From Candidatus Forterrea multitransposorum CG_2015-17_Forterrea_25_41 (lineage in GTDB: Archaea; Iainarchaeota; Iainarchaeia; Iainarchaeales; CSSED10-239): a stretch of 64,000 nucleotides of DNA. The stretch covers positions 1 through 64,000 of the forward strand of contig CP045477.1 of NCBI GenBank assembly GCA_009392915.1, in the 5' to 3' direction. The notes below the pieces were generated by a model that saw only the letters and a program-made list of their open reading frames with translations, was not told where the DNA came from and did not search any database. The position numbers and the translations under genes are program-made. Below are positions 23,406 to 55,537 of this stretch, one piece after another; positions within the stretch are counted from its first letter, which is position 1; the number at the start of each line of letters is the position of its first letter.

Positions 23406-23609
23406 ATGGATATAAATAATAAATTATCTAAAAATCTAAAGTTAGCTTTTAAAGCATATGAAACAAGAAGTATTTCTTTATCAGAGGCAGCAGACATCGC
23501 TGGTATTTCATATAAGGATTTTTTAGATAAAATGGCTGTAAATAATGTTAAGTTTGATTTTTCAAGTATTGGAAAAGATGTGAACTATTTTGTTAAGAAA
23601 ACTAAGTAG
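23406..23609 (+). CDS. UPF0175-family small protein (antitoxin-like), orphan
   Basis: 67 aa; LAFKAYETRSISLSEAADIAGISYKDFLDKM resembles UPF0175; no DUF3368/PIN partner adjacent. Confidence 0.35.
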   Translation: MDINNKLSKNLKLAFKAYETRSISLSEAADIAGISYKDFLDKMAVNNVKFDFSSIGKDVNYFVKKTK

Positions 23610-23622
23610 TTTAATCTTTTTT

Positions 23623-24739
23623 TATAATTGTGTTGCATAACTCTTTTTAAAAGTATTGTCTAACCTATTTTATTACTAGATAAAGGAGGTTAGACAATAT
23701 GAATATTAAGAACGAAAAGATTAATAAAAGGAACTGGTCAAAGATAAATTATGGAAAAACAAGACAAATCTTGTTTTTACTAGATAAAAACATTATTTTT
23801 AGTGAAAATGAAAGACTAGTTTCCCAAAATAAAAACAAACCAGGAAGACAATTTATATATAGTGATAGAATAATAGAACTATTAATTGATCTTAAAAATT
23901 ATTTTAAATTTGATTATCGTAAACTACAGGCATTCTGCCTGTTGTTTAATAATGTTATAAAAATAAAAACACCTGACTTTACAACTATTTGTAGAAGAAT
24001 GCACAAATTAGAATTATTTCTAAAAAATATAAAAACAAAAAAAGAACCAACCTTTATAGCTATAGATGGTTCTGGACTTCAAACTACTAATCGAGGAGAA
24101 TGGCTTAGATTAATACACAAAAAAGGAAAAATAAACTTAAGAAATGGATTTGTAAAATTAGTGATTGCAACAGATGTTGCATCTGGAGAAATAACTGGAG
24201 TGTATATTTCAGATGATTCTGATTTTGAAAATAAAAGCTTATCAGATTTATTATACCAAACAATAAATAATCAAAACCAAGAAGTCAAAGGACTTCTTGG
24301 AGATGGGGCATACGATTCTTATGATAACTTTGATATGCTTGATGATATGGGAATAAAACCAATTATCAAAATCAGAAAGAATGCAATTACAACAGAACCT
24401 AATGACGATTATTTAAAAAGAAGAAGAAAACTTGGAAAAAAGAAAAAAATAAAAAGAATTGAAGTTGCAAAAAAGCAACTTAAAAATGTAGATGACTGGA
24501 AACAAAAAAATGAGTATAATAAAAGGTGGGTTGTTGAATACACGTTTAGTGTATTCAAAAGACTATTCGGACATAGTGTGTACTCTAAAAGAAAGAAATA
24601 TGTCAAAAATGAAGTAATTTCTAAAGTAAATTTGTATAATAAATTATTAAATATCAATTAAGAAAAAAATAAAATGAATTAAAAAAAGAAATAAGCTAAA
24701 AATATTGTGTAAAACACAATATTTGTGCAACACAATTTT
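23623..24739 (+). mobile_element. IS5-family-like insertion sequence with ~17-bp imperfect terminal inverted repeats
   Basis: Left end ATAATTGTGTTGCATAA (23623-23639) and right end TTGTGCAACACAATTTT (24723-24739) are reverse complements, with a 12/12 core AATTGTGTTGCA (23626-23637) / TGCAACACAATT (24726-24737); single transposase ORF inside. Confidence 0.6.
23699..24661 (+). CDS. DDE transposase, IS5-like (DDE_Tnp_1 type)
   Basis: IAIDGSGL (D), LLGDGAYDS (D), C-terminal VVEYTFSVFKRLFG (E...K) typical of IS5/IS4-type transposases; 320 aa. Confidence 0.75.
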   Translation: MNIKNEKINKRNWSKINYGKTRQILFLLDKNIIFSENERLVSQNKNKPGRQFIYSDRIIELLIDLKNYFKFDYRKLQAFCLLFNNVIKIKTPDFTTICRRMHKLELFLKNIKTKKEPTFIAIDGSGLQTTNRGEWLRLIHKKGKINLRNGFVKLVIATDVASGEITGVYISDDSDFENKSLSDLLYQTINNQNQEVKGLLGDGAYDSYDNFDMLDDMGIKPIIKIRKNAITTEPNDDYLKRRRKLGKKKKIKRIEVAKKQLKNVDDWKQKNEYNKRWVVEYTFSVFKRLFGHSVYSKRKKYVKNEVISKVNLYNKLLNIN

Positions 24740-24818
24740 TTTTATCTTTTTTAGTTACATTTATAAATATAATCTTCTTTAATATTAGTACCTTATATAT
24801 ATTATACTCAGATCATTT

Positions 24819-26192
24819 ATGGCTATAGACAAAAGATTTTTTTTAGGGATAACTATTAGTAAAAAAAGAAAAGCAATTTCTCCTTTAATTGCCACTATTC
24901 TTTTAATAGTTGTTGCCGTTGCAATTATAGCTATTATTGTTTCCTGGGGAAAAGGATTTACCAATGATTCTTTAAGCAAAGCCTCTGGTCTTGAAATTTA
25001 CACTGAATCAGAAACTTCTTTTTACTTGCAAGTAAAAAATTCAATAAACGGAAGAACTGTTGTTCAATATAATCCTCCTTATAATTCTCCTCACACCTCT
25101 TTAACCATAACAGGTTATAGCCTACATGGTAACACGAATATTAATCCCATAGATCCACCAATTACAATAACTGCAAACCAAACTGCAGTTATTGATCATG
25201 GTATTTTATTTCCAGAATTAAATTTAGTTTTATATTTGGATAATGATCGAATGATTATTAAAACTGATCTTTTACAAACTATTAAATCTCCTCTTTCTTG
25301 TCCAGAAGGTTATGTTTCTGTTCCAGGAAACCACTTATATGGAACTATGAATGAAAGTGGGGGTTTTTGTGTTTCAAAATATGAGATGAAAATGGATAGA
25401 ACAGGAGATGGAATAGGAAATCTTGTAGCTGATTATCCTGATTGTAACACCGGTTCTTTAACATATAATACTTATAGTTATGAATTATGCCCTACACCAG
25501 GCACTTTAGTTTCTACTCCAGAAGGTTCTCCCATAGCAAGAATCACACAAACTGAAAGCATATCAGCCTGTGAAGCTATTGGTGGTCATTTAATAACAAA
25601 TAACGAATGGATGACCATTGTACGAAACATAGAACAAGTTCCATCTAATTGGTCAGGTGGAGCAGTTGGTGATGGCTACCTTCCAAGAGGGAATTCATCT
25701 TCTTCAGGAGCTATGGAAGGCTTTGATCAACTTTCAGGAACTACCAAAAGAACCTTGACCTTAACAAACGGAGAGGTAATTTGGGATTTAGCAGGAAATG
25801 TAAGACAATGGACCAGTGACACTATTCAAAGAAAGGACCAGCCTGATGGTTTTAATAATGTAGATGATAGTAATAATACTTCTGGTTTTAATTGGTTTGA
25901 TTATTTTAAGGGCGGTGGAGTAGATCAATATATTTATTCTGATAATTTAGGTAACACCACCTTAAAGTATAAAGATTTATTTTTATTAACTAGTAATACT
26001 TATAATGCAACAGATAATGGTGTTGGAAGGATTTATACTTATAGTGATTTTAGTGATACTAGTACAACTGAGTACGCGTTTTTGCGCGGTGGTCACTGGG
26101 GCAATGGCACTAATGCCGGGGTCTTGCACCTGGTCTTGAACAAGACTCCTGGGTCCCGGAGCATCCTCATCGGCCTGCGCTGTGTCAAGTAG
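24819..26192 (+). CDS. DGR target: pilin-like (class III signal peptide) surface protein with C-terminal FGE/C-type-lectin-fold variable region
   Basis: N-terminus KAISPLIATILLIVVAVAIIAII (archaeal pilin-like); C-terminus YAFLRGGHWGNG...LIGLRCVK resembles the FGE-sulfatase/CLec fold used by DGR variable proteins; its last ~120 nt form a GC-rich VR matching the TR. Confidence 0.75.
   Translation: MAIDKRFFLGITISKKRKAISPLIATILLIVVAVAIIAIIVSWGKGFTNDSLSKASGLEIYTESETSFYLQVKNSINGRTVVQYNPPYNSPHTSLTITGYSLHGNTNINPIDPPITITANQTAVIDHGILFPELNLVLYLDNDRMIIKTDLLQTIKSPLSCPEGYVSVPGNHLYGTMNESGGFCVSKYEMKMDRTGDGIGNLVADYPDCNTGSLTYNTYSYELCPTPGTLVSTPEGSPIARITQTESISACEAIGGHLITNNEWMTIVRNIEQVPSNWSGGAVGDGYLPRGNSSSSGAMEGFDQLSGTTKRTLTLTNGEVIWDLAGNVRQWTSDTIQRKDQPDGFNNVDDSNNTSGFNWFDYFKGGGVDQYIYSDNLGNTTLKYKDLFLLTSNTYNATDNGVGRIYTYSDFSDTSTTEYAFLRGGHWGNGTNAGVLHLVLNKTPGSRSILIGLRCVK
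26072..26192 (+). repeat. DGR variable repeat (VR), 3' end of the target gene
   Basis: ~55% GC in a ~25% GC genome; near-identical to 27297-27417 with 13 mismatches, 12 of them at template adenines; identical 3' 24 nt CATCGGCCTGCGCTGTGTCAAGTAG (IMH-like). Confidence 0.8.
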
Positions 26193-26498
26193 TTTTTAGA
26201 AAAAATATATTTCATCCCCAAACCATGTATTTAGACGGGTGAGACGGCAAGACGGCCAGACGGAAGAAGCCATGGCAACCTAAACGTTTCAAGATTGTTT
26301 TTGCAAAAAAATGAAAAAACGTATTTGTGAAGTTTTAAAAAAAAGAAATGAGTGTGATTTTTGCAAATTTTTTTGATTTTTTTCAAAAAAATTTGCTAGC
26401 CGTTAAACCAAATGGTTTTTTAATGTAAAAATAATTTTTATAATAATTAAGTTTTAAAGAAAAAATACTTTATATCTTGGACAAACAATGTGATTTAA

Positions 26499-26885
26499 AT
26501 GAGTTTAGTTGGAAATGAAAAAGGAATTCTAAATTTTGGTGTTTACAAGGAGCTTTTCCCAATCGTTATTGAAACTTATAATTTTTTAGAAAATAATAAA
26601 TCTTTATTTAAAGTAGATTTTGTTTATACAGATACTGTTAAAAATTTAATAGATATTCTTTCTTTTCTTTCCAAAGGGTATAATAAATTTCATTCTAATG
26701 AAAAATCTTTACTTTACTCTTATTCAAGAGATTGTGTTTCTACAACCCAATCTAATCTTTTAATATTATCTGAACTTAATAAAGATCTCTCAAAAGAAAA
26801 AACCTTATATTTTTATAATCAATTTGAGGATAAAATAAAGTATTTTAATGGTTTAATAAAAAAGATTGAAGAAAATAAAAACTAG
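26499..26885 (+). CDS. Hypothetical protein inside the DGR cassette
   Basis: 128-aa ORF between the target gene and avd; no recognisable motif. Confidence 0.3.
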   Translation: MSLVGNEKGILNFGVYKELFPIVIETYNFLENNKSLFKVDFVYTDTVKNLIDILSFLSKGYNKFHSNEKSLLYSYSRDCVSTTQSNLLILSELNKDLSKEKTLYFYNQFEDKIKYFNGLIKKIEENKN

Positions 26886-26896
26886 GGTATATTATT

Positions 26897-27226
26897 ATGT
26901 TATTTGACTTAAAGTTATATAAAGAAACTTATAACTTTTTACTTTATATTTATCCTGAAATAAATAAATTCCCTAAATCAGATAAATATTCTTTAGGAGA
27001 GGATATTAAAAAAACAACTATTTCTTTAATGTCAAATATTGTTCTTTTTTCAAAGCATAATGAAAATACTTTAAAAGAAGCAGATAAAAACTTAGAATTA
27101 CTAAGAATATATATTAGGCTTTCTTTTGATTTAAAAATAATCTCTTTTAAAAAATATGAGGTTATTTCAAGGCAATTAAATGATATTGGTAATTTATTAG
27201 GTGGTCTTTTAAAACAAAAGATTTAA
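26897..27226 (+). CDS. avd: Accessory variability determinant (Avd)-like four-helix-bundle protein
   Basis: 109 aa, predicted all-helical, basic; sits immediately upstream of TR and RT (canonical avd-TR-RT order). Confidence 0.55.
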   Translation: MLFDLKLYKETYNFLLYIYPEINKFPKSDKYSLGEDIKKTTISLMSNIVLFSKHNENTLKEADKNLELLRIYIRLSFDLKIISFKKYEVISRQLNDIGNLLGGLLKQKI

Positions 27227-27296: not shown

Positions 27297-27417
27297 GTGC
27301 GCGTTTTTGCGCGGTGGTAACTGGAACAATGGCACTAATGCCGGGGTCTTGAACCTGAACTTGAACAATACTCCTGGGAACCGGAACAACAACATCGGCC
27401 TGCGCTGTGTCAAGTAG
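27297..27417 (+). repeat. DGR template repeat (TR)
   Basis: GC-rich noncoding copy of the VR containing AAC/AAT codons (would encode N-rich ...NWNNGTNAGVLNLNLNNTPGNRNNNIGLRCVK); located between avd and the RT. Confidence 0.8.
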
Positions 27418-27678
27418 TTTCTCCTTATTATTTTTAATAATAAGGTTTTATCAGAGTTTGTATGTTTATTTTTTTATCTAAAAAAACATATAAAGCGAAT
27501 ATTTTAAAAAACTACATCTGTAAAATGTTTCCTGATTGCACATAATGTGTGCCATAAGAACTATTTTGTTTTTATGTTAAAAAATCAAATATAAAGATAA
27601 GTTATTACATTTAGTATTTTTATAGTCTGTAAAAAGAAATCTGTAATAACTCTTAACTTTAAATAAGGCTTTTTAAAA

Positions 27679-32483: not shown

Positions 32484-34376
32484 ATGGACTTATTCGATAA
32501 TATTAAAAAACAAATTTCTTCTCTCTTAAATGAGAAAAAAATGTCGTTTTCAAAGATAGAACCTGAAGCTTCAGAGATTGCTATCTATACAAATGACCCT
32601 TATTCTTTTTTCAGTAATAAAACAATTGTTGGTGAAATTGCTGATAAATTTAAAAAAAGAATTAACATTAGAACTGAAAAATCATCTCTTATGGATTCAG
32701 CTGAAGCCTATAATAAAATAAAAGAAATAATTCCAGAAGATGCTGGTATTAAATCAATTGCTTTTGATGGAGTTTTTTCAGAAGTTGTAATTGAAGCAGA
32801 TAAGCCTGGTGTAGTTATTGGAAAACAAGGAGATGTTTCAAAATCAATTATAAAAGAAACAAAATGGATTCCAAAAATATTAAGAGCACCACTTGAACCT
32901 TCTGAAATAATTAAAAAAATAAGAGGGTATGCAATTAAAAATAATACTGAAAGAAGACAATTTCTAAAAGAAGTTGCAAAAAAAATATATTCTCCTCCTG
33001 TTAGTAATAAAGAATGGGTTAGAATGACAGCTCTTGGTGGTTTTAGAGAAGTTGGAAGAAGTGCTATACTTTTAGAAACTCCTGATACAAAAATACTTTT
33101 AGATTGTGGAATTAATCCTGCAGATAAAAATGAAGAAGCACCTTTCTTTGGTGTTATAAGATTTCCTTTAGATGAACTTGATGCTGTAGTAATTACACAC
33201 GCTCACATAGATCACGTAGGATTTTTACCATATCTTTTTAGAGCAGGTTATAGAGGTCCTGTATATTGTACAGAACCTACAAAAGATATTATGGCTCTTT
33301 TACTTTTAGATGCAATTTCAGTTTCTGAAAAAACAGGTAGAGAAGCTCTTTATGGAGAAGAAGATGTTAAGGAAGTTATAAAACACTGTATAACTAAAAA
33401 CTTTAGAGAAGTTACAGATATCGCTCCTGGAATAAGACTTACTTTCCATAATTCAGCACATATTTTAGGTTCTGCTTCTGCACACTTACATATAGGTGAT
33501 GGAAAACATAACTTAGTTTATTCTGCAGATATTAAATATGGTTTTACAAGATTATATAACAATATGGATGCAAATTATCCTAGAGTAGATACTTTAATTT
33601 TAGAAAGTACTTATGGTGGTAAACCATTAAATCCTTCTAGAAATAAATCAGAAGATCGTTTAATAGAAGTTTTAAATGAAACACATGATAAAGGAGGAAT
33701 TACTTTAATTCCTGTTTTTTCTGTAGGTCGTGCTCAAGAAGTTATGATTGTTTTAGAAGAATATTTTAGACGTGGAAAATTAAAAGCAGAAAATGTTTTT
33801 ATAGATGGTATGACAAGAGAAGCTTCTTTAATACATACTGTTTATCCTGAATATTTAAAAATGAATATTAAAACTAGAGTTTTACAAAATAATTCTCCAT
33901 TTTCTTCAAAACTTTTTAGATCAGTTGATTATGAAGAAAATTCTAGAGAAAATGTTTTAAATTCTCCTGGTTCAATTATTATAGCATCATCAGGTATGCT
34001 TACAGGTGGACCTTCAGTTGCATATTTTAATGAACTTGCAGATAACCCTAATAATTCTTTAGTTTTTGTTGGTTATCAAGCAAGAAATAGTTTAGGACAA
34101 AAGGTGCAAAAAGGTTTAAAATCAATGATTATTAATGATTCTAAAGGAAAAACAAAAACATTAAATGTTAATCTTAGAATTGAAACTATTGATGCCTTTT
34201 CAGGTCACGCTTATCGTCAAGAGTTACTAAATTATGTTACAAGTTTAAATCCTAAACCAAAAACAATTTTAGTAAATCACGGTGATTCTTGTCCTGAATT
34301 TGCAAGATTTGTTGCAAAGAAATTCCATATTAATACACTTTCAATTCAAAATTTAGAGAGTGTTAGATTAAGGTAA
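32484..34376 (+). CDS. Archaeal CPSF1 homolog (KH domains plus MBL plus beta-CASP ribonuclease)
   Basis: N-terminal KH region, MBL motif HAHIDHVGFLP, beta-CASP region, ~630 aa typical of aCPSF1. Confidence 0.8.
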   Translation: MDLFDNIKKQISSLLNEKKMSFSKIEPEASEIAIYTNDPYSFFSNKTIVGEIADKFKKRINIRTEKSSLMDSAEAYNKIKEIIPEDAGIKSIAFDGVFSEVVIEADKPGVVIGKQGDVSKSIIKETKWIPKILRAPLEPSEIIKKIRGYAIKNNTERRQFLKEVAKKIYSPPVSNKEWVRMTALGGFREVGRSAILLETPDTKILLDCGINPADKNEEAPFFGVIRFPLDELDAVVITHAHIDHVGFLPYLFRAGYRGPVYCTEPTKDIMALLLLDAISVSEKTGREALYGEEDVKEVIKHCITKNFREVTDIAPGIRLTFHNSAHILGSASAHLHIGDGKHNLVYSADIKYGFTRLYNNMDANYPRVDTLILESTYGGKPLNPSRNKSEDRLIEVLNETHDKGGITLIPVFSVGRAQEVMIVLEEYFRRGKLKAENVFIDGMTREASLIHTVYPEYLKMNIKTRVLQNNSPFSSKLFRSVDYEENSRENVLNSPGSIIIASSGMLTGGPSVAYFNELADNPNNSLVFVGYQARNSLGQKVQKGLKSMIINDSKGKTKTLNVNLRIETIDAFSGHAYRQELLNYVTSLNPKPKTILVNHGDSCPEFARFVAKKFHINTLSIQNLESVRLR

Positions 34377-34382
34377 GGTATT

Positions 34383-34877
34383 ATGTATTTTGTAATAACA
34401 GGTTCTGTTGCAAGCGGTAAAACTACGCTTGCACAAGAAGTTAAAAAAAAATTTCCTTTTCAAAAGTTTTTAGTTGTTAATGATAAAGATTTTTCTAAAG
34501 AAAATAATATTGCTATCTTAAATGAAGAAACAAAAGAATATGAAATAGATACTTCACTTCTTTCAAAAAAATGTTTAGAACTTTTAAAAAAGAAAAAAAA
34601 TATTATTTTTGAAGGACATTTGTTTTGTGAAGTTTCTAAACTTTTTTTAAAAAAAATGGATTTTGTTTTTTTATTATTATCTTCTGAAAAATTATTAAGA
34701 GATAGAATGTCTGAGAGAAATTATTCTGTTTTAAAAATTGAAGAAAATATTCTTTGTCATAAGACAAGTTATTTTCAAGAAAAATTAAATTCTAAAAAAA
34801 TAGATTATATTCCTATAGAGGTTTCAAAAGACCTTAAATTAAATTTAAAAAAAATAAATAAATATTTAAAATTATAA
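34383..34877 (+). CDS. P-loop NTPase / nucleoside(-monophosphate) kinase-like protein
   Basis: Walker A ITGSVASGKTTLA at the N-terminus; 164 aa. Confidence 0.4.
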   Translation: MYFVITGSVASGKTTLAQEVKKKFPFQKFLVVNDKDFSKENNIAILNEETKEYEIDTSLLSKKCLELLKKKKNIIFEGHLFCEVSKLFLKKMDFVFLLLSSEKLLRDRMSERNYSVLKIEENILCHKTSYFQEKLNSKKIDYIPIEVSKDLKLNLKKINKYLKL

Positions 34878-34890
34878 AATGTGATAAAAA

Positions 34891-35724
34891 ATGGTTCAAG
34901 CATTAGTTTCTGCAAAAACACAAACTGTTAAAGAAATTAAAAAGAAATCTTCTATTAAAAGAAGAAATAAATTAATTGTTAAATTGATTTTAATAACTAT
35001 TGTTGCAATATTAATTGCATTGATATTAAGCAAAATAGTTGTTGAAACAAGAACTTCTTTTACAAATAATGATATTGACTTTAAATCAGTAAACTTTCAT
35101 ATACATGAAGGTTTTGAAATATTTGGAACTGATAAAAATTATTTATTAGTTTTTAATTACTATTACCAAGATACAAATTATTTATCTTCAGTAATTGATG
35201 GCCTTGTATTTTCTCAATCCATGCTTTCTGCTAAAAATAAAAATACAATTCTTTTAATTTCTGTAATTGATAATGAAAATAATCTTCTTTATTGTCAATC
35301 AAATAATGGAAATGTTTTAGAAAATATTGAACTTACAAGTGAAGAATGTTTATCTCTTTTAGATACTAATCATTCTGTAATTATGGTTAATTATCCTTTT
35401 GGAGATGTTGAAAAATCAGAAGTTGTTTTAAATTTAAATGAAAAATTATTATTAATTAATCCTAAATCAAAAGAATTTGTTTATGACTCTTTATATGTTT
35501 CTTTTAATCAAATGTATAAAGATGCTAAAATGATTGAAGATTCTTTAACAGATATTCAAAATAAATTAAGCACTTCTAAAGAAAAGTCTTTGGTTGATAA
35601 AAATATTATTGATGAAAATATTGTTGATGAAAACTTTTATGATCAAAATATTTTAATTGATGAAAATTTTTCTGATGATAATTCTTTAAACGATGATAAC
35701 TTTTCACAAGATATTAATAATTAA
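34891..35724 (+). CDS. Membrane-anchored hypothetical protein with C-terminal acidic D-E-N repeats
   Basis: N-terminal TM helix; C-terminal degenerate repeats IDENIVDENFYDQNILIDENFSDDNSLNDDNF. Confidence 0.3.
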   Translation: MVQALVSAKTQTVKEIKKKSSIKRRNKLIVKLILITIVAILIALILSKIVVETRTSFTNNDIDFKSVNFHIHEGFEIFGTDKNYLLVFNYYYQDTNYLSSVIDGLVFSQSMLSAKNKNTILLISVIDNENNLLYCQSNNGNVLENIELTSEECLSLLDTNHSVIMVNYPFGDVEKSEVVLNLNEKLLLINPKSKEFVYDSLYVSFNQMYKDAKMIEDSLTDIQNKLSTSKEKSLVDKNIIDENIVDENFYDQNILIDENFSDDNSLNDDNFSQDINN

Positions 35725-35786
35725 ATATTTTTTTAAAAATAACTTTATAAAACAATTTATATTGTTTATGTTCTATAATTATAATT

Positions 35787-37157
35787 ATGTCTTCAATAAA
35801 TCTTGATAAATCAAAAGTATCAATTTATAGAGATACTAGAAAGAAATTACTTTCTCAAATCAAACCTAGTACTTCTCAAAATATAAAAGAAAAAAGATTT
35901 ATTGATAATGTTATTAAAAAAATAGAAAAGATGCCAGGACCACATTTATCTGCTGTTTGTGCAGGTTCTTTTGGAAAAGGTACTAATTTAAAAGATACAA
36001 AAGATTTTGATGTTTTTGTAATTTATCCTCCTTCTCTTGAAAAAACAAAATTTATTGAAGAAGGTTTAATGTTAGGTCAAAAAGCTTTTAAAGGATATTT
36101 TTGGGAAAAAGCATATTCTCAACATCCTTATATAAGAGGTGTAATTGACGGACATAAAGTTGAAGTTGTGCCTGCATATAAAATAGAACCTAATGAACCT
36201 ATAATTTCTGCAGTTGATAGAACTGTTTTACATTTAATGTTTGTTTTAAAAAATATGTCTGAAACACAAAAAGATGAAACTAGACTTTTAAAATATTTTT
36301 TAAAACAAATAGGGTCTTATGGTGCAGATACTTCTGTATCTGGATTTTCTGGTTATTTATGTGAACTTTTAATTCTATTTTATGGAGATTTTATAACTGT
36401 TTTAGAGAATGCTTCAAATTGGCAATATCCTATAAAATTTACTTTACTTAAAGAACAACATGTTAACTTAGCAAGATTTTCTGAAAGCTTAGTTGTAATT
36501 GATCCTATTGATGATACTAGAAATGTAGCATCTGCTGTAAGTTTAAAACAATTAAGTTTATTTATAGCTTCTTCAAGAAAATTTTTAGAAAATCCTTCTA
36601 TTGATTTCTTTAATACTAAAGTTATTCCAAAAGTTACATATCATCAATTAATAGGGAAACTTGAAAATTTTTCACTAGTAATTGTAAGTTTTGAAGTAAA
36701 AGATATGTTAAAAGAAATTATTTGGTCTAAAGTTAAAAGTAATACTTCAAAGTTAATTACTCATTTAGAATTTTCTGATTTTGATATTTTAAAATATGAA
36801 GTTTATCATAAAGAAGGTCAAGATAGATGTTATCTTGTATTATTATTAAATACTTTAGAACTTCCTAAATTTAAAAAAATTAATGGACCTTTAGTTTCTG
36901 ATTTTAAAAGTTCTCAAAATTATTTAACTAATAATCGTTCTGTACTTGGTCCATATATTAAAGAAGATAGATGGTATGTTGTAAGAAAAAGAGATAAAAC
37001 TTCTGCAAAGGCAATAATTTTAGATTTCTCACAAGTCTTTAATTTAAAATCTAAGATTTATTCTGGAACAGAGATCAATGATTTATTTTTAGAAGATGAT
37101 GACTTATCTGAATATTTAACTGATTTTTTTATTACTAAAGAGAAATTTTTAATTTAA
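35787..37157 (+). CDS. cca: CCA-adding enzyme (archaeal class I tRNA nucleotidyltransferase)
   Basis: Nucleotidyltransferase motif GSFGKGTNLKDTKDFDVFV; ~450 aa typical of archaeal CCA enzymes. Confidence 0.7.
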   Translation: MSSINLDKSKVSIYRDTRKKLLSQIKPSTSQNIKEKRFIDNVIKKIEKMPGPHLSAVCAGSFGKGTNLKDTKDFDVFVIYPPSLEKTKFIEEGLMLGQKAFKGYFWEKAYSQHPYIRGVIDGHKVEVVPAYKIEPNEPIISAVDRTVLHLMFVLKNMSETQKDETRLLKYFLKQIGSYGADTSVSGFSGYLCELLILFYGDFITVLENASNWQYPIKFTLLKEQHVNLARFSESLVVIDPIDDTRNVASAVSLKQLSLFIASSRKFLENPSIDFFNTKVIPKVTYHQLIGKLENFSLVIVSFEVKDMLKEIIWSKVKSNTSKLITHLEFSDFDILKYEVYHKEGQDRCYLVLLLNTLELPKFKKINGPLVSDFKSSQNYLTNNRSVLGPYIKEDRWYVVRKRDKTSAKAIILDFSQVFNLKSKIYSGTEINDLFLEDDDLSEYLTDFFITKEKFLI

Positions 37158-37617
37158 TTTTTTTAGTTATATATAAGTTAATTATTTAATATTAATATCT
37201 TATTTTTTCCTTTTTTATCCTAAGTAATTATAATCTGGTATGTTATTTTAGATTAAGGTGTTTTTTTTTGTACACTTATTTAGGGTTAATATATATATAT
37301 TACACAAATTATAGTTATATTGGATTTGAGACCTTGGAGACAAGTAGTTTCCTAAAGAATGATTTTCAGGTGAGTTTTTTCATCTAGGAGGTGGTGATAA
37401 AGTAATATGACGATAAACGACTCGAACGATAGTTAGGGAAGCAAACCCAAACCAGGTTTATATGGTAAACTGATGTGATTTGAAGGCTTCCCTATCTTTA
37501 ACAAATATTTTTTCTATTTCTCTAATTTTATTTAAATTCTATAAGCTTTATATATCTTTTCTATATATATTATATATATAGTACCTTTTTTTTATCAAAG
37601 ACTATATGGTAAAAAAT

Positions 37618-37699
37618 GCAGAGGTGGCGGAGTGGTCAAACGCGCCAGCCTTGAGAGCTGGAGCCTTGCGCTACACGAGTTCGAATCTCGTCCTCTGCG
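37618..37699 (+). tRNA. tRNA-Ser (anticodon UGA)
   Basis: Cloverleaf with acceptor stem GCAGAGG/CCTCTGC, anticodon loop CUUGAGA, long variable arm, T-arm ACGAG-TTCGAAT-CTCGT; no encoded CCA. Confidence 0.8.
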
Positions 37700-37730
37700 C
37701 TTTATCTTTTAAAATATAGGAATTTTTATT

Positions 37731-38063
37731 ATGATTAAAGAAAACATTTCTTTTCAAGATTTTTTAAAACTTGATATAAGAATTGGAACAATTGTTGAGG
37801 CTGAAGCTGTTGAGGGTTCTGATAAATTAATAAAATTAATAATTGATTTTAAAGATTTTAAAAGACAGATTTTAGCTGGTATTAAAACAAAATATCAACC
37901 AACTGATTTATTAAACAAACAAATTCCTGTTATTGTAAATTTAGAACCTAGAAAAATGATGGGTTTTGAAAGTCAAGGAATGATCTTAGCTGTTGGAGAT
38001 AAAACTTTAGATGCTTTACTTTTACCATCTGAGCCTGTATCGGAAGGCTCGATTGTACACTAA
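37731..38063 (+). CDS. tRNA-binding domain protein (CsaA/Trbp111/EMAP-like OB fold)
   Basis: LDIRIGTIVEAEAVEGSDKL ... PVIVNLEPRKMMGFESQGMILAV is the canonical Myf/tRNA-binding domain signature; 110 aa. Confidence 0.75.
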   Translation: MIKENISFQDFLKLDIRIGTIVEAEAVEGSDKLIKLIIDFKDFKRQILAGIKTKYQPTDLLNKQIPVIVNLEPRKMMGFESQGMILAVGDKTLDALLLPSEPVSEGSIVH

Positions 38064-38084
38064 TTTTTTTTTAAAACTAAAAAT

Positions 38085-38166
38085 GCAGAGGTGGCGGAGT
38101 GGTCAAACGCGCAAGCCTGGAAAGCTTGAGCCTCGTGCTACGCGAGTTCGAATCTCGTCCTCTGCG
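38085..38166 (+). tRNA. tRNA-Ser (anticodon GGA)
   Basis: Near-identical backbone to tRNA-Ser(UGA); anticodon loop CUGGAAA. Confidence 0.8.
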
Positions 38167-38197
38167 CTTTTTTCTTTTTTAATTTAATATTTATTTT

Positions 38198-38286
38198 GCA
38201 GAGATGGCGGAGTGGTCAAACGCACAAGTTTCGAAAACTTGATTAAGGTTTTTTCCTTTACATGAGTTCAAATCTCATTCTCTGCG
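38198..38286 (+). tRNA. tRNA-Ser (anticodon CGA)
   Basis: Acceptor GCAGAGA/TCTCTGC, anticodon loop UUCGAAA, ~20-nt variable arm with AAGG/CCTT stem, T-arm ATGAG-TTCAAAT-CTCAT. Confidence 0.7.
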
Positions 38287-38462
38287 TAGCTGGTTTCGGT
38301 CAGCTAGCACCCAATGATTTTGCGTTTGTTAACGCTTATTTAAACTTTCTTTTTAAAAGAAGTGATTTTCCCCCAAAACTTTTTTTCTTTAAAAATTGTG
38401 TTTTAAAAATTTTTAATCTATTTTATATCTATTTAAAATACTTTTGCCTCTCTTTAATATTT

Positions 38463-39584
38463 ATGACTGAAAAAATGATTGTAAATCCATACCAAGTAGA
38501 AGGAGAAGTTGATTACCAAAGACTTGTAAAAGAATTTGGTCTTCAAGAAATAACTCCTGAAATTTTAGAAAAAATAAAACAAATAACTAAAGGTCTTCAT
38601 CCAATGTTAAAGAGAAAAATCTTTTTTGCACATAGAGACCTTAACTGGGTGTTAGATGAATATCTAAAAGGAAATAAATTTTTTCTATATACAGGTTGTG
38701 GTCCATCAGGTCCAATCCATCTAGGGCATGCATTAGTATGGTATTTTACAAAATACTTACAAGATACTTTTGATGTTGAATTATATTTTCAGTTTACAGA
38801 TGATGAAAAATTTTTATACAAAGATAAACCTTATGAAGAAATACAAAAATGGGTCTATGAAAACATGCTTGATGTTATAGCTATAGGTTTTGACCCTAAA
38901 AAAACATTTTTCATAGTAGACACAAAGCATGCTGGTCTTCTTTACCCAGAGGCAATAAAGGTTGCAAAGAAATTAACTTTTTCAACAGTTAAATCTTCTT
39001 TTGGTTTTACAGATAGCAATAATGTTGGATCTATTTTTTATACCTCTATGCAAGCAGTTCCTTCTTTTTTGCCATCAGTTTTAAAAAAGAAAAACATTCC
39101 TTGCCTTATTCCTCATGCAATAGATCAAGATAATCATTTTAGAATAACAAGAGATATTTTACCAAAGCTTGGTTTTTATAAACCTGCAAGCATACAATGT
39201 TCTTTTCTTCCTCCATTAACAGGAGCTTTTGGAAAAATGAGTAGTACTGGAGAAGCTAAAGGAATATTCATGACAGACTCTCCAAAAGAGATTAAAGATA
39301 AAATAAATAAATATGCCTTCTCTGGAGGACAACCAACTTTAGAAGAACATAGAGAAAAAGGTGGAAACACAGAGATTGACATTCCTTTCCAATATTTAAA
39401 ATATCTTTTCGAAGAGGATGATGAAAAATTAGCAGAGATTGAAAAAGATTATTCTTCTGGAAAGATGTTAACTGGAGAGATTAAAAAATATTTAATTGAT
39501 AAAATAACTGCTTTCCTTTTAGCTCATCAAGAAAGAAGAAAAGATGCTCACAAGAAAATAGATGATTTTCTTTTAAAGGTTTAA
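38463..39584 (+). CDS. trpS: Tryptophanyl-tRNA synthetase (class I aaRS; Trp versus Tyr not fully resolved)
   Basis: HIGH-type motif GCGPSGPIHLGH and KMSKS-type motif KMSSTGE; 373 aa counted from the Met at 38463 (the upstream part of the reported ORF overlaps the tRNA and is not coding). Confidence 0.65.
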   Translation: MTEKMIVNPYQVEGEVDYQRLVKEFGLQEITPEILEKIKQITKGLHPMLKRKIFFAHRDLNWVLDEYLKGNKFFLYTGCGPSGPIHLGHALVWYFTKYLQDTFDVELYFQFTDDEKFLYKDKPYEEIQKWVYENMLDVIAIGFDPKKTFFIVDTKHAGLLYPEAIKVAKKLTFSTVKSSFGFTDSNNVGSIFYTSMQAVPSFLPSVLKKKNIPCLIPHAIDQDNHFRITRDILPKLGFYKPASIQCSFLPPLTGAFGKMSSTGEAKGIFMTDSPKEIKDKINKYAFSGGQPTLEEHREKGGNTEIDIPFQYLKYLFEEDDEKLAEIEKDYSSGKMLTGEIKKYLIDKITAFLLAHQERRKDAHKKIDDFLLKV

Positions 39585-50782: not shown

Positions 50783-52288
50783 ATGAAACTAGAATTAAAA
50801 ATAAAAATATTAGATATTTATGCAAATTATCCAATAGTTATTATGCATCCAAGATCATCATTAAGTTTAGGTGCACAAAATTTAGATAGATTAGAAGTTA
50901 AAAATGAAAAAATTGATACAGCTTTTGTTTTAGACACTTCAAATTCTTATGTTACAGAAAATGAATTAGGTATTTTTAAAGATACAGCAAAAGATCTAAG
51001 TTTAAACAACGGAGATAAAGTAGTTGTAAAATTACAAACACCTCCTCTTGCAACTAAATATATAATGGATAAAATAAAAAATAAAACTTTAGAAAAAGAA
51101 GAAATTGATGAAATTGTAAAATCTATAGAAAACAATTCTTTATCAGAAGTTGAATTATCTGCTTTTGTAACTGGAGTTTTCATAAATGGTCTTAATTTAG
51201 AAGAAACTAAATTTTTATGTAATTCTTTAGTTGATATTGGAGATAGAATTGATTTTGGAGAAAACATTATTTTAGATAAACATTCTATTGGTGGAATTAA
51301 TGGTAGAGTTTCAATGATATTAACTCCAATTATTGCATCTTTAGGTTATAAAATTCCAAAAACAGCGTCTAGATCAATAACTTCTGCAGCAGGTACTGCT
51401 GATGCCATGGAAGTTTTAGCTCCTGTAAGCTTTGATGTTGAAGAAATTAAAGAAATTATAAATAAAGCAGGTGGAGTTGTTGCATGGGAAGGTAAATTTG
51501 ATCTTTGTCCTGTAGATAATAAATTAATTGATATTGAACATGCTTTAGGAATTAATCCAGAAGGAATAATGATTGCATCTATTCTTTCAAAGAAAAAAAG
51601 TATAGGTTCAACTCATCTTGTAATTGATATTCCTGTTGGAAGAGATGTTAAAGTTAAAAATAAAGAAGATGGAGAACGTCTTGCAAAGAAATTTATAACT
51701 ATTAGTGAATCTTTAGGTATTAAATCTAAGGTTGTTTTAACTGATGGTGATAAACCTTGTGGGGATTTCTTTGGTCCAGCTCTTGAAGCTAAAAATGTTT
51801 TAGAACTTTTAGAAGGTAAATATCAAGACTCTGTTTTAGAGAAAGCATGTCTTCTTGCAGGTGAACTTTTAGAGCTTGTTGGAAAATCAAAAAATGGAGA
51901 AGGTTATCTTCTTGCAAAAGAAATTGTAACTTCTGGAAAAGCTTTAGATAAATTTATTGAAATTATTAAAATTCAAGGTGGAAGTATTTTAAGATCAGAA
52001 GATGTTCCAAAAGCTAAGTTTATACAAAAGATTTATTCTTCACAAGCAGGGGATGTAAATAATTTTGATGTTTCAAAAATAACTCATTTAGCAAAACTTT
52101 TAGGTGCTCCAAAAGATATTGAAGCAGGTGTTGTTTTATTCTGTCAAGTAGGAGATTCTGTACAAGTAAATGATGCTATATTAGAGTTCCATGCAAATAC
52201 AGAAGAAAAAATATCAAGAGCTATTGAGTATTTAAAAGATAATAATCCTGTTATCTTTGATAAAATGGTTTTAGAAGAGTTTGAATAA
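50783..52288 (+). CDS. AMP phosphorylase / thymidine phosphorylase-family protein (glycosyltransferase family 3)
   Basis: ~500 aa with an N-terminal extension as in archaeal AMP phosphorylase (DeoA type); phosphate/nucleoside-binding core SIGGINGRVS, TASRSITSAAGTAD. Confidence 0.65.
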   Translation: MKLELKIKILDIYANYPIVIMHPRSSLSLGAQNLDRLEVKNEKIDTAFVLDTSNSYVTENELGIFKDTAKDLSLNNGDKVVVKLQTPPLATKYIMDKIKNKTLEKEEIDEIVKSIENNSLSEVELSAFVTGVFINGLNLEETKFLCNSLVDIGDRIDFGENIILDKHSIGGINGRVSMILTPIIASLGYKIPKTASRSITSAAGTADAMEVLAPVSFDVEEIKEIINKAGGVVAWEGKFDLCPVDNKLIDIEHALGINPEGIMIASILSKKKSIGSTHLVIDIPVGRDVKVKNKEDGERLAKKFITISESLGIKSKVVLTDGDKPCGDFFGPALEAKNVLELLEGKYQDSVLEKACLLAGELLELVGKSKNGEGYLLAKEIVTSGKALDKFIEIIKIQGGSILRSEDVPKAKFIQKIYSSQAGDVNNFDVSKITHLAKLLGAPKDIEAGVVLFCQVGDSVQVNDAILEFHANTEEKISRAIEYLKDNNPVIFDKMVLEEFE

Positions 52289-52304
52289 AACTCTTTTTCT
52301 TTTT

Positions 52305-53102
52305 TTATTTTTTAATTAAATTATATATTTTTTCAAATTCCTTTACAGATATTTGTTTTACTTTTTTAGTCTGTAATTTTTCTGGAATAAGTTTTATTTT
52401 ATCTAAAGAAATTATTTCTTTATTTTCAGAATTAGAATGTTTAAAGCTATTAACTATATCTTTATTTGGATATCTAAAAATATTTTTAATAAACTGATTA
52501 TAATTATCATCTACTTTTGTGTTCTTTTTTGGAATTATTGAAACTATTGAAGAATCAACTTTTGGTTTTGGAAAAAAAGATGCTTTTCTAATGTTTCTAA
52601 TATTTTTTATATCACTATGTGATTGTAAAAGTACACTGATTGAAACATAATTTGCAAAACCTTCATATGCAACTAATTTTTCTGCAAATTCTTTTTGTAC
52701 AACTAGACATGCTGGTTTAGTTGCTATTATCTTATCAATTATTTTTAAAGATATTGAATAAGGAATAAATCCAACAATTTTATCAAATTTAAGTTTAGAT
52801 AGATCTACTTCTAAAAAATCAGAATGGATTATTTCTAGATTTTTATCTGGATATTCTTTTTTTAAGATTTCAACCATTATTGGATCTTTTTCAATAGCAA
52901 TTACTTTTTTAAAAACTTTTAAAAGTTCTTTTGTTACAAATCCAAGTCCAGGCCCAATTTCTAGAACTGTTTCTTCTTTATTAGGTTTAATTGTTTCAAT
53001 TACTTTAGAAATAGAGTTTTTATCTATTATAAAATTTTGATCTAATTTATGGTTAGGTTTAAATCCATGAATAAGCATTAATCTATATATTTCTTTTTGC
53101 AT
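52305..53102 (-). CDS. rsmA: 16S rRNA (adenine1518/1519-N6)-dimethyltransferase KsgA/Dim1
   Basis: SAM-binding VLEIGPGLGFVT motif; 265 aa; conserved position next to DUF655/rpoF/rpl21e. Confidence 0.8.
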   Translation of the reverse strand: MQKEIYRLMLIHGFKPNHKLDQNFIIDKNSISKVIETIKPNKEETVLEIGPGLGFVTKELLKVFKKVIAIEKDPIMVEILKKEYPDKNLEIIHSDFLEVDLSKLKFDKIVGFIPYSISLKIIDKIIATKPACLVVQKEFAEKLVAYEGFANYVSISVLLQSHSDIKNIRNIRKASFFPKPKVDSSIVSIIPKKNTKVDDNYNQFIKNIFRYPNKDIVNSFKHSNSENKEIISLDKIKLIPEKLQTKKVKQISVKEFEKIYNLIKK

Positions 53103-53116
53103 AATAATTAATTTTT

Positions 53117-53638
53117 TTATTTTTTAATAAGATATGGCATTGTAAATAAATTATATTTAATTTCTTCGCCACCGATGATTTCATCAATAACCCTATTTAC
53201 AACAACCTTTACAGGATCTGGCATCATTTCTATTTCTCTAATGTCATCAAAAGAAGTGAATTTACCTTTTTTCTTAATATGTTCAATGATTGCCATTCTA
53301 TGTTTTACACCTATCATTGGTAAAAGATCAAGTTGATGTCTTCTAAGACCAATTGGTTTTGCATTATTGAAAAAATTTACAAATTTATCTGAGTGTTCAG
53401 TTACAATTGTTTCAATTGCTTTGTCAAGTTCTTTTTTTCCAACATTTGATAATCTATTATAATTTATTCTTCTTACAATTAAATTTTCTGTGGAAATTTT
53501 TTCTTGAATCTTATGATTTTCTGAAGTAACAATTTCAAGTAAAGAAAAGTTAGAGCTACCAATACAGTGAATAACATCTGTTTGTTTAAATTTAATATCT
53601 TTCTTTAGTCTATCTAAAACTATTGCTTCTTTCATCAT
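53117..53638 (-). CDS. DUF655/COG1491-family predicted nucleic-acid-binding protein
   Basis: 173 aa; sits between ksgA and rpoF as in many archaea. Confidence 0.45.
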   Translation of the reverse strand: MMKEAIVLDRLKKDIKFKQTDVIHCIGSSNFSLLEIVTSENHKIQEKISTENLIVRRINYNRLSNVGKKELDKAIETIVTEHSDKFVNFFNNAKPIGLRRHQLDLLPMIGVKHRMAIIEHIKKKGKFTSFDDIREIEMMPDPVKVVVNRVIDEIIGGEEIKYNLFTMPYLIKK

Positions 53639-53647
53639 AAAATTTAA

Positions 53648-53971
53648 TCACTCTTTTTTGTATTTCTTTAAAATTTCTATGATTTTTTCTTTTTTATCAT
53701 CATCAATATCTTTTTCTTTTTCTAATATTAAGTTTAATTCTGTAACATTAGGCAAGATATCAGTTATTTTTGTTGCAAGTTCATCAGATAATTCTATTTC
53801 AATTAAAGCTGATTTTAACTTTTCTGCTGTTGCAGGAGTTAAACTTGCAAATAACTTTGCATGCTCGTGTGCATGTTTTTGTTCGAAATTTAATTCTTTT
53901 TCTTTTGCTTTTTCAGTTAATACTTTCTTAACTTCATTTAATGTTACGTCTTCAACATATTTATAATTCAT
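53648..53971 (-). CDS. rpoF: DNA-directed RNA polymerase subunit Rpo4/F
   Basis: 107-aa acidic helical protein in the conserved L21e-RpoF-DUF655-KsgA neighbourhood. Confidence 0.5.
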   Translation of the reverse strand: MNYKYVEDVTLNEVKKVLTEKAKEKELNFEQKHAHEHAKLFASLTPATAEKLKSALIEIELSDELATKITDILPNVTELNLILEKEKDIDDDKKEKIIEILKKYKKE

Positions 53972-54288: not shown

Positions 54289-54527
54289 ATTTAATTACCT
54301 TTTTTTATATTTTTTAAGACTTTGAAAAATTAAGTCACTAGACTAATAAATATCAAAATCTATTAATTATTCAATATATATTAATAGAATAGATATGTTT
54401 TAAAAGAGATTCTTAGGGGAAGAGGGTTTTGAAAATTCATTTTATTTATATTCCTTTAAATACCCCTTTATAAATATTTTGCTTTATAATATATCTAAAG
54501 TGCATATATAAAAATAGGTGATTTCTT

Positions 54528-55136: not shown

Positions 55137-55211
55137 TTTCTTTTTTTCTTATTTTTTAATAAAATATTTAAAAAGAATCTATTTATAAACTTTGTGGTTC
55201 TTATTATTTAT

Positions 55212-55327: not shown

Positions 55328-55537
55328 ATTTAATATTTTCTATTTTATAAAAAAGAATTATTAAAAGCTATTTTTTTTAAAAATAATTTTTCTACAAGCA
55401 AAACTTATTTTTTTATAAATAATTTAGTTCTTGTTTAGATAAACTTAAATTAAATCTATTTTTTAAAATTAAATATCTTTTAATATATTTCCCTACACAT
55501 TTATTTATTATAATTATTTATTTAAGGGGAAAAATAT

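What the first reader, a model, noticed from the sequence alone, without database searches (positions are those of the whole stretch)
23623..24739. Intact IS5-like insertion sequence with 17-bp imperfect terminal IRs abutting the DGR target gene
A 320-aa DDE transposase (D...D...E-K-R pattern of the IS5/IS4 type) is flanked by inverted repeats ATAATTGTGTTGCATAA and TTGTGCAACACAATTTT, with a 12/12 core. An additional palindrome AATATTGTGT-AAAA-ACACAATATT lies inside the right end (24701-24723). The IS sits ~80 bp upstream of the DGR target gene and may influence its expression. Mobile elements are rare in such streamlined genomes, so this marks the region as an accessory island.
Basis: seen in the sequence. 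Interest (0 to 1): 0.5.

Follow-up and report, generated by a model that had tools for sequence, protein, structure and literature searches.

The report
Active archaeal IS that targets promoters
This is a real, intact and currently jumping 1.1-kb insertion sequence of the IS5 family in a tiny-genome (DPANN) archaeon, and it and its close relatives land at a fixed distance and orientation just upstream of TATA boxes, where they damage no gene.

Summary
The element is window 23626-24737 (1112 bp), not 23623-24739. It carries one intact 320-aa DDE transposase gene and perfect 12-bp terminal inverted repeats (AATTGTGTTGCA). It is flanked by an 8-bp target duplication (TTTTTTAT), not 3-4 bp.

Public contigs hold nucleotide-identical copies at five sites. 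Two of those sites are present unoccupied in this same window (35722-35729 and 55160-55167), in flanks that are 100% identical. The element is therefore transposing in the natural population.

Size, single ORF and 8-bp duplication fit the ISH1 subgroup of the IS5 family. The closest named bacterial relatives are IS903-like (26.5% identity).

It does not mark an accessory island: the other sites adjoin the 5S rRNA, TBP and CCA-adding-enzyme genes. The DGR target's TATA box is intact, and the DGR still diversifies in IS-bearing alleles.

The unexpected result is target choice. In 9 of 14 independent right junctions of this IS and its close relatives, an archaeal TATA octamer (TTTAWAWA) starts 15-17 nt after the duplication. 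No left junction shows this. P is about 1e-13 against the genome background and 1e-5 to 1e-7 under conservative nulls.

A conserved, covarying hairpin buries the transposase Shine-Dalgarno sequence and start codon.

The parts
23626..24737 (+). Complete insertion sequence, 1112 bp
   Evidence: The ends are set by the point where 10 loci with different flanks start and stop being identical. All copies are 100% identical over 1112 nt. JGI also holds contigs of exactly 1112 bp that carry >=90%-identical variants of this transposase.
23618..23625 (.). Left copy of the 8-bp target-site duplication, TTTTTTAT
   Evidence: It is identical to 24738-24745.
24738..24745 (.). Right copy of the 8-bp target-site duplication, TTTTTTAT
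23626..23645 (+). Left terminal inverted repeat (12 perfect bases, 17/20 overall)
   Evidence: (I10). The GTTGCATAACTC core is conserved in relatives at 51-71% identity.
24718..24737 (-). Right terminal inverted repeat
   Evidence: (I10).
23644..23651 (+). TATA-like box TTTTTAAA, the putative transposase promoter just inside the left repeat
   Evidence: The CTTTwwAAA block is invariant in 7 relatives. Promoter function is inferred. The predicted transcription start is about 23674, calibrated on the 5S gene, whose TATA starts at -30.
23653..23700 (+). Conserved RNA hairpin whose 3' arm covers the Shine-Dalgarno GGAGG (23685-23689) and the A and U of the start codon
   Evidence: Free energy is -26.4 kcal/mol with z = -6.95. 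The same fold appears in every relative. Eight of 16 pairs show compensatory changes.
23699..24661 (+). Transposase gene, 320 aa, DDE (D123, D202, E280) with the YREK signature
24700..24724 (+). Subterminal palindrome at the right end (11-bp arms, 3-nt loop)
   Evidence: z = -3.6. It is kept in L039, L048 and L049. In L045 and L011 it is kept with two compensatory pairs. It is absent in L041 and L044. Its function is unknown.
24760..24767 (+). Host TATA box TTTATAAA of the DGR target gene, starting 15 nt after the duplication
35722..35729 (.). Empty allele of another insertion site (TAAATATT), occupied in L010 and L003. A TATA box follows at 35744-35751, upstream of the CCA-adding enzyme gene (35787-37157)
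55160..55167 (.). Empty allele of another insertion site (TAAAATAT), occupied in L004. The 5S rRNA TATA box follows at 55182-55189, and the 5S gene starts at 55212

Best explanation
**What it is.** Window 23626-24737 is one copy of an autonomous, currently active IS5-family insertion sequence of ISH1-like type: 1112 bp, one DDE transposase gene and an 8-bp target duplication. The host is a DPANN archaeon with about 25% G+C.

**Shown.**
- The ends, the inverted repeats and the 8-bp duplications at five sites of this IS.
- Nucleotide-identical copies at all those sites.
- Two sites that are occupied in some population contigs and empty in this window.
- A transposase that is full length with all catalytic residues.

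**Inferred from family knowledge.** A transposase multimer binds the terminal repeats. It excises or copies the element through DDE-catalysed hydrolysis and transesterification. It then joins the 3' ends to target DNA cut with an 8-bp stagger, and repair of the gaps creates the duplication.

**Shown statistically, mechanism inferred.** Insertion is oriented and position-specific. The right tip lands 22-24 bp upstream of a TATA-box octamer, and the duplication ends 14-16 bp before it. The element therefore sits between the upstream gene's end and the downstream core promoter, and nothing is disrupted. I take this to be target selection by the transpososome. It could read the deformable BRE/TATA DNA directly, or it could recognise TBP/TFB bound there. 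Survivorship alone is the less likely explanation.

**Inferred regulation.** The element's own promoter (TATA 23644-23651) should start transcripts at about 23674, inside a conserved hairpin. Transcripts from that promoter would lack the 5' arm and be translatable. Read-through transcripts from upstream host genes would form the hairpin and bury the Shine-Dalgarno sequence and AUG. This would shield transposase synthesis from outside transcription.

**Effect on the DGR.** At this locus the DGR target gene keeps its promoter, and the DGR remains active.
For: **Family and integrity.**
- Pfam and NCBIfam matches.
- DDE and YREK residues invariant in 14 relatives.
- Full-length alignment to IS903-type transposases.

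**Ends and duplications.**
- Searches give five sites with these duplications: TTTTTTAT, TAAAATAT, TAAATATT, GAAAACAA, TTAAAAAA.
- Relatives also make 8-bp duplications: L014-L017, and L012 paired with L049.

**Activity.**
- All copies are 100% identical.
- The flanks of L004, and of L010 with L003, map at 100% identity onto the window with an 8-bp overlap and no IS.

**ISH1-type parameters.** 900-1150 bp, 8-bp direct repeat, one ORF (table in PMC6352166).

**Targeting.**
- TTTAWAWA starts at flank position 23 (6 times), 24 (2) or 25 (1) in 9 of 14 right junctions. In the 13 usable left junctions read outward (two of 15 extractions failed), no exact match falls at those positions; L048 has a one-mismatch TTTAAAAT at position 23.
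- Only 1.5% of random oriented intergenic positions score this way. The binomial P is 9e-14.
- The duplication itself has no consensus.
- The 5S TATA starts exactly 30 nt before the 5S 5' end, so it is a genuine promoter.
- In L042 and L049 the TATA-like octamer is not followed by a co-directional gene. This argues against pure selection for promoter adjacency.

**DGR still active.**
Against: **Targeting.**
- The inference rests on only 14 junctions, all taken from metagenome contigs.
- The intergenic spacers are short (median about 84 bp with crude gene calls). Selection alone already confines surviving insertions to 20-50 positions per site.
- Two of the five sites of this very IS (MJa, MJb) lack an exact TATA octamer at the expected position.
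- The more distant clade (51-54% identity) has no exact TTTAWAWA at that position (0 of 6). It shows only T-rich, TATA-like runs.

**Regulation.** No transcription start site, transposase-DNA contact or TBP/TFB interaction was measured. The start-site argument for the hairpin is a prediction.

**Classification.** ISfinder could not be queried, so assignment to the ISH1 subgroup rests on element parameters, not on sequence clustering.
Confidence: 0.85

Rival explanations
1. Under this rival, the fixed spacing to TATA boxes reflects survivorship rather than targeting. In a genome that is about 89% coding, only insertions between a stop codon and the next BRE/TATA are tolerated. Orientation is filtered because antisense transposase transcription into the upstream gene is harmful.
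For: The intergenic spacers are short. At the CCA site the duplication overlaps the upstream stop codon and lies only 14 nt from the TATA, which leaves about 20 permissible positions. At three of the four intergenic regions hit by this IS the upstream gene is co-directional, so an orientation filter is plausible.
Against: If insertion were uniform over 20-40 permissible positions, 9 of 14 junctions would not fall in a 3-nt window (P about 3e-5 to 2e-7, derived). The 5S site offers about 47 permissible positions yet shows exactly the same spacing. L042 and L049 show the octamer at the same distance without a co-directional downstream gene.
Confidence: 0.25
2. Under this rival, the element belongs to the IS903 subgroup of IS5 rather than the ISH1 subgroup.
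For: The best named hits in annotated plasmids are 'IS5-like element IS903 family transposase', aligned over 98% of the length at 26.5% identity. The two-domain Pfam architecture matches, at least by my recollection of IS903, which I did not scan here.
Against: By my recollection of ISfinder, IS903-group elements duplicate 9 bp. This element and its relatives duplicate 8 bp at every junction pair that could be matched (5 for this IS plus 5 for relatives). That is the ISH1-group value (PMC6352166). At 26.5%, the identity is too low to assign a subgroup.
Confidence: 0.2
3. Under this rival, the contigs that join the left flank of one site to the right flank of another record real IS-mediated rearrangements in the population. 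Examples are 160-aa gene|IS|DGR in L002 and L007-L009, and UPF0175|IS|MJ0043_C in L031. The mechanism would be homologous recombination between copies, such as an inversion.
For: Both reciprocal junction types are present, A|IS|DGR and UPF0175|IS|MJ0043_C, as an inversion would produce. They recur in several samples.
Against: The 1112-bp repeat is identical in all copies and longer than short reads, so assemblers can join flanks arbitrarily. The same left flank is joined to three different right flanks (DGR, CCA, MJ0043_C), which points to graph ambiguity. Most contigs carrying UPF0175 simply stop inside the IS.
Confidence: 0.25
4. The IS is a rare mobile element that flags an accessory island and modulates expression of the DGR target.
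For: The IS lies 81 bp upstream of the target ATG. No IS-free allele of this site appeared among 22 contigs read.
Against: The element also inserts next to the 5S rRNA, TBP, CCA-adding-enzyme and MJ0043-like genes. G+C content across the IS and DGR region (0.256-0.299) is only slightly above the rest of the window (0.198-0.291). The target's TATA box and 14 nt of upstream DNA are untouched. The window holds only one copy, so there is no composite transposon.
Confidence: 0.1

Closest known systems
ISH1 subgroup of the IS5 family (for example ISH1 of Halobacterium salinarum and ISTth7 of Thermus)
   Same: Length falls within 900-1150 bp, there is a single DDE transposase ORF, and the direct target repeat is 8 bp (PMC6352166). 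Short terminal inverted repeats are present, and the group includes archaeal hosts.
   Different: No sequence comparison with ISfinder entries was possible. ISH1 and IS903 are described as having no marked target specificity (PMC1676026). This clade instead inserts at a fixed distance and orientation upstream of TATA-like octamers.
IS903 (IS5 family, IS903 subgroup)
   Same: It aligns over the full length at 26.5% identity. By recollection, it also shares the DDE_Tnp_1_5 plus DDE_Tnp_1 architecture, a size of about 1.05-1.1 kb and repeats of about 18 bp.
   Different: By recollection of ISfinder, IS903 makes 9-bp duplications and prefers a symmetric target. Here the duplication is 8 bp and the flanking signal is one-sided.
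Promoter- or Pol III-targeted eukaryotic retrotransposons (Ty3, Ty1, Dictyostelium TRE5-A, S. pombe Tf1)
   Same: By analogy only: integration occurs at a fixed short distance from a TBP-containing initiation complex. This gives a 'safe haven' in a gene-dense genome.
   Different: These are unrelated enzymes (retroviral-type integrases and retrotransposition) in eukaryotic hosts. No tethering factor is shown here. The comparison rests on my own knowledge, not on a test.
IS200 and IS10/IS50 control of transposase translation
   Same: A stem-loop in the transposase 5' region sequesters the Shine-Dalgarno sequence (IS200: PMC4513863). By recollection, IS10 and IS50 block translation of read-through transcripts by fold-back pairing.
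   Different: The IS families differ, and the host here is archaeal. The start site of the transposase mRNA is only predicted here.

Membership tests
IS5 family | DDE transposase of the DDE_Tnp_1 (IS4/IS5) type, above curated thresholds | tested here: met
   Pfam PF01609 scores 79.5 bits (cutoff 23) and PF13737 scores 50.4 bits (cutoff 28.1). NCBIfam NF033579 transpos_IS5_2 scores 195.3 bits (cutoff 140), covering profile positions 2-287 of 289.
IS5 family | Catalytic D, D, E with the Y-(2)-R-(3)-E-(6)-K signature, all intact | tested here: met
   D123, D202, Y273, R276, E280 and K287 are invariant in the alignment of 14 relatives.
IS5 family | Terminal inverted repeats bounding the element | tested here: met
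   A 12/12 core extends to 17/20. The ends are confirmed by multi-locus comparison and conserved in relatives.
ISH1 subgroup of IS5 | 8-bp target-site duplication | tested here: met
   Five sites of this IS show it, as do five sites of relatives. The reference value comes from PMC6352166.
ISH1 subgroup of IS5 | Length of 900-1150 bp with one ORF | tested here: met
   The element is 1112 bp with a single 320-aa ORF. Relatives measure 1086-1093 bp.
ISH1 subgroup of IS5 | Transposase clusters with ISfinder ISH1-group members rather than with the IS903, ISL2, IS5, IS1031 or IS427 groups | not testable with these tools
   ISfinder is not available. The only named neighbours found are IS903-type at 26.5% identity.
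IS903 subgroup of IS5 | 9-bp target-site duplication | tested here: not met
   Every matched junction pair shows exactly 8 bp. The 9-bp value for IS903 is from my own knowledge of ISfinder.
Active (autonomous) IS | Insertion polymorphism: the same site is found occupied and empty in otherwise identical DNA | tested here: met
   Window 55160-55167 and 35722-35729 are empty. L004, and L010 with L003, carry the IS there, in flanks 100% identical over about 2.9 kb on each side.

The most novel reading that the evidence does not exclude
This IS5-family clade may practise true targeted integration. The transpososome would recognise archaeal core promoters, either the BRE/TATA DNA itself or TBP/TFB bound to it. 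It would insert in one orientation with its right tip 22-24 bp upstream of the TATA box. To my knowledge this would be the first promoter-directed 'safe-haven' DDE insertion sequence described in archaea. It would be a prokaryotic counterpart of Ty3- or TRE5-type targeting, and it would explain how an IS stays active in a sub-megabase, gene-dense DPANN genome.
Probability: 0.55. Interest if true: 0.75.

Novelty: new variant of a known kind. Interest (0 to 1): 0.6.

Why it matters
DPANN archaea have very small, gene-dense genomes in which an active transposon should be costly. This case shows an IS moving on a timescale shorter than SNP accumulation. Occupied and empty alleles sit in flanks that are 100% identical.

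It also suggests how the element is tolerated. It lands in the few bases between one gene's end and the next gene's core promoter, at a fixed distance from the TATA box and in one orientation.

If the targeting is mechanistic, it provides a simple archaeal system for studying promoter-directed integration. It might also become a tool that reports or exploits promoter positions in uncultivated archaea. Insertion junctions would mark TATA boxes.

For the scan, the practical lesson is that this IS is not an island marker and does not visibly impair the neighbouring DGR.

Tried and rejected
It comes from a pre-existing ATCTTTTTT(T)ATCTTTTTT repeat in the host spacer. Multi-locus comparison gives an 8-bp duplication next to ends at 23626 and 24737.

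2. **A 3-4 bp duplication outside 23623/24739.** Those positions hold only T-runs, which are uninformative.

3. **Further full or partial copies, or MITE-like derivatives, in the window.** None were found. The DGR is therefore not inside a composite transposon.

4. **Scans of genome contigs,** with the protein and with the 14-sequence profile, found no relative. Host taxonomy therefore rests on cluster names only.

5. **Scan of metagenome contigs with the single protein** found nothing. The profile scan gave 18 loci.

6. **An IS-free allele of the DGR site.** None was found among 22 contigs carrying the UPF0175 gene; all run into the IS.

7. **The exact TTTAWAWA test in the distant clade** (51-54% identity) gave 0 of 6. 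Only TTTTTAT-like runs appear at positions 24-30, so I restrict the targeting claim to the close clade.

8. **Left-flank extraction for L041 and L043** picked the wrong anchor. Those two rows were ignored.

9. **Literature searches** for an archaeal IS with TATA or promoter targeting, or for DPANN IS5 elements, found nothing relevant in the held library. That library is incomplete, so this does not prove novelty.

10. **The bacterial sigma-70 promoter and terminator scanner** was not used, because it does not cover archaeal promoters.

Full report
**1. The observation**

The region contains a 320-aa ORF at 23699-24661 on the + strand. It matches Pfam DDE_Tnp_1 and DDE_Tnp_1_5. It also matches the NCBIfam model transpos_IS5_2 at 195 bits against a cutoff of 140, over essentially the whole profile.

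The 12-nt core AATTGTGTTGCA occurs exactly twice in the 64-kb window, in inverted orientation on either side of the ORF, at 23626-23637 and 24726-24737. The repeat extends to 17 of 20. The inner palindrome near the right end is real: 11-bp arms and a 3-nt loop at 24700-24724.

**2. True borders and target duplication**

An exact-protein look-up returned ten public contigs that encode the identical transposase in several different genomic contexts. Lining up their flanks shows that identity begins at AATTGTGTTGCA and ends at TGCAACACAATT. In window coordinates that is 23626-24737, or 1112 bp. All ten copies are identical to the window copy at every one of the 1112 nucleotides.

Immediately outside these ends each site has its own perfect 8-bp direct repeat:
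- TTTTTTAT at the window site (23618-23625 and 24738-24745).
- TAAAATAT in L004.
- GAAAACAA in L001.
- TAAATATT, from the L010 left flank paired with the L003 right flank.
- TTAAAAAA, from the L002-type left flank paired with the L031 right flank. This site lies 15 bp from the L001 site, in the same intergenic region.

**3. The element is active now**

Two of the other insertion sites lie inside this very window, unoccupied.
- The two flanks of L004 map at 100% identity to 52241-55167 and 55160-58083. They overlap by the 8 bp that are duplicated in L004.
- The L010 left flank and the L003 right flank map to 32803-35729 and 35721-38645.

The same strain, with no SNP in about 5.8 kb of flanking DNA per site, thus exists with and without the IS at these positions. 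In contrast, every one of 22 contigs carrying the upstream UPF0175 gene runs into the IS. The copy next to the DGR therefore looks fixed.

Several contigs combine the left flank of one site with the right flank of another, including a reciprocal pair. The repeat is 1.1 kb and identical everywhere. I regard these contigs as probable assembly joins, although real recombination between copies is not excluded.

**4. Classification**

The catalytic D123, D202 and E280, and the Y-(2)-R-(3)-E-(6)-K signature, are invariant among 14 relatives of 318-323 aa. The protein is therefore not truncated.

A length of 1112 bp, one ORF and an 8-bp duplication are the published parameters of the ISH1 subgroup of IS5 (900-1150 bp, direct repeat 8; table in PMC6352166). 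Relatives at 51-54% identity have the same end geometry (six bases, then GTTGCATAACTC), lengths of 1086-1093 bp and 8-bp duplications.

The nearest named elements in annotated plasmids are IS903-type, at 26.5% identity over the full length. By my recollection IS903 duplicates 9 bp, so that subgroup's defining feature is not met. ISfinder itself could not be consulted.

No relative was found in the GTDB species representatives. The clade is known only from metagenomes.

The host is an archaeon with about 25% G+C. Its TBP falls in a 90%-identity cluster that includes a protein labelled 'Candidatus ainarchaeum sp.'. This suggests Iainarchaeota within DPANN, but the evidence is weak.

**5. Internal anatomy and likely regulation**

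Just inside the left repeat lies an invariant CTTTwwAAA block (TTTTTAAA at 23644-23651). It has the form of an archaeal TATA box.

Downstream, 23653-23700 folds into a 21-bp interrupted hairpin of -26.4 kcal/mol (z = -6.95). Its 3' arm contains the GGAGG Shine-Dalgarno sequence (23685-23689) and reaches into the AUG. Every relative examined folds the same way despite different stem sequences. Eight of 16 consensus pairs show compensatory double changes.

The 5S rRNA gene of this genome calibrates the spacing: its TATA starts 30 nt before the mature 5' end. On that basis the element's own transcripts should begin near 23674, inside the hairpin, and so lack its 5' arm. Transcripts entering from upstream host genes would contain both arms and be translationally silent. 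This is an inference. [quoted passage not shown]

The right-end palindrome is conserved in the closest relatives, with two compensatory pairs in L045 and L011. It is absent from L041 and L044. Its role is open. It could be a 3'-end or terminator structure, or a feature that makes the two ends functionally different.

**6. The unexpected part: where it lands**

At the window site, the 5S site and the CCA site, the host sequence to the right of the IS reads as follows: 8-bp duplication, 14 unrelated bases, then TTTATAAA. At the 5S site this octamer is the genuine promoter TATA box.

I then collected every independent right junction available for this IS and for relatives with at least 62% identity. 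The archaeal TATA octamer TTTAWAWA starts at flank position 23 in six junctions, at 24 in two and at 25 in one. That is 9 of 14. Two more are one-mismatch versions at positions 23 and 24.

Read outward, none of the 13 usable left junctions has an exact match there; L048 has a one-mismatch version (TTTAAAAT) at position 23. The duplicated 8 bp themselves show no consensus. The only informative block is positions 23-30, with an A-rich, C-containing stretch just before it, which resembles BRE plus TATA.

| Null model | Chance per site of scoring in the 3-nt window | P for 9 of 14 |
|---|---|---|
| Random oriented positions in this window's intergenic DNA upstream of genes | 1.5% | 9e-14 |
| A TATA box always lies somewhere within 20-40 nt downstream, at a uniform offset | 7.5-15% | 3e-5 to 2e-7 |

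Selection surely contributes, because spacers are short. However, it does not explain a 3-nt window. Nor does it explain L042 and L049, where the octamer sits at the same distance without a co-directional downstream gene.

I therefore favour target selection by the transpososome, at about 0.55-0.65. Whether it reads the deformable TATA DNA directly or recognises TBP/TFB bound to it cannot be decided here.

The literature held in the library describes ISH1 and IS903 as lacking marked target specificity (PMC1676026). Searches for promoter- or TATA-directed archaeal IS elements found nothing. That library is incomplete.

**7. Consequences for the neighbouring DGR**

The DGR is genuine. VR (26072-26195) and TR (27297-27420) differ at 14 positions, 12 of them TR adenines. 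VR differs by up to 18 nt among contigs that all carry the IS. A bAvd gene and a reverse transcriptase lie downstream.

The IS tip is 22 bp upstream of the target gene's TATA box (24760-24767), and the duplication preserves the upstream context. Nothing suggests that the IS disrupts the cassette. An effect on transcription level is untested. The window holds a single copy, so the DGR is not part of a composite transposon.

**8. Verdict**

The finding as written, an intact IS5-like IS beside a DGR target, is correct in substance and by itself ordinary.

The island inference is wrong.

Following the evidence outward gives two additions. One is direct evidence of ongoing transposition in a natural DPANN population. 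The other is a statistically strong, oriented, fixed-distance association with TATA boxes, which is not a described property of this IS family.

I classify the element as a new variant of a known kind and score interest at 0.6. That score depends mainly on whether the targeting proves mechanistic.

Noticed in passing
window 26072-26195 (VR) and 27297-27420 (TR); L002 and L005: The DGR next to the IS is active in the population. Twelve of 14 TR/VR differences lie at TR adenines. The VR of L002 and L005 differs from the window VR at 18 positions, mostly TR-adenine positions. L006 and L008 match the window exactly.
   Followed up: partly
window 26499-26885 and 26897-27226: Two small genes lie between the DGR target and the TR. 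The second is a clear bAvd (76.8 bits). The first (128 aa) has no Pfam hit, but its similar size hints at a second, divergent Avd-like protein.
   Followed up: no
L001, L002 and L031: the intergenic region between a 160-aa gene (-) and an MJ0043_C-domain gene (+): The same IS made two independent insertions 15 bp apart, in the same orientation and the same divergent-promoter spacer. Their duplications are TTAAAAAA and GAAAACAA.
   Followed up: yes
L002, L003, L007, L008, L009, L031: Some contigs join the left flank of one IS site to the right flank of another, so their duplications do not match. A reciprocal pair is among them. They are either assembly chimeras through the identical 1.1-kb repeat or real IS-IS recombination.
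   Followed up: partly
window 23406-23609: A 67-aa UPF0175 (antitoxin-like) gene lies directly upstream of the IS. No partner toxin gene was seen next to it, either as found or in the reconstructed pre-insertion sequence.
   Followed up: no
window 55097-55143: An AAAAAGAAATGATTTCTTTTT palindrome followed by T-runs lies around the stop of the TBP gene. It looks like its terminator. The IS site in L004 falls between this structure and the 5S promoter.
   Followed up: no
window 37618-38287: Three tRNA-Ser genes with different anticodons (tga, gga, cga) cluster within 670 bp.
   Followed up: no
L050 / L051 (JGI Ga0490011_017374, 1990 bp): This contig carries two copies of a related transposase gene head-to-head, 42 bp apart, with no recognisable left repeat between them. 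It is probably a palindromic assembly artefact.
   Followed up: no
cluster of P0001: Two JGI contigs carrying near-identical transposase variants (P0127, P0128) are exactly 1112 bp long. That equals the IS length deduced from flank comparison, as expected for a collapsed multi-copy repeat.
   Followed up: no
window 24723-24737 (right tip): The right terminal repeat is itself a small palindrome, TTGTG-CAA-CACAA. The arms of both subterminal hairpins (left 23654-23661, right 24703-24710) resemble the tip motif ATTGTGT. These may be extra transposase-binding sites.
   Followed up: no
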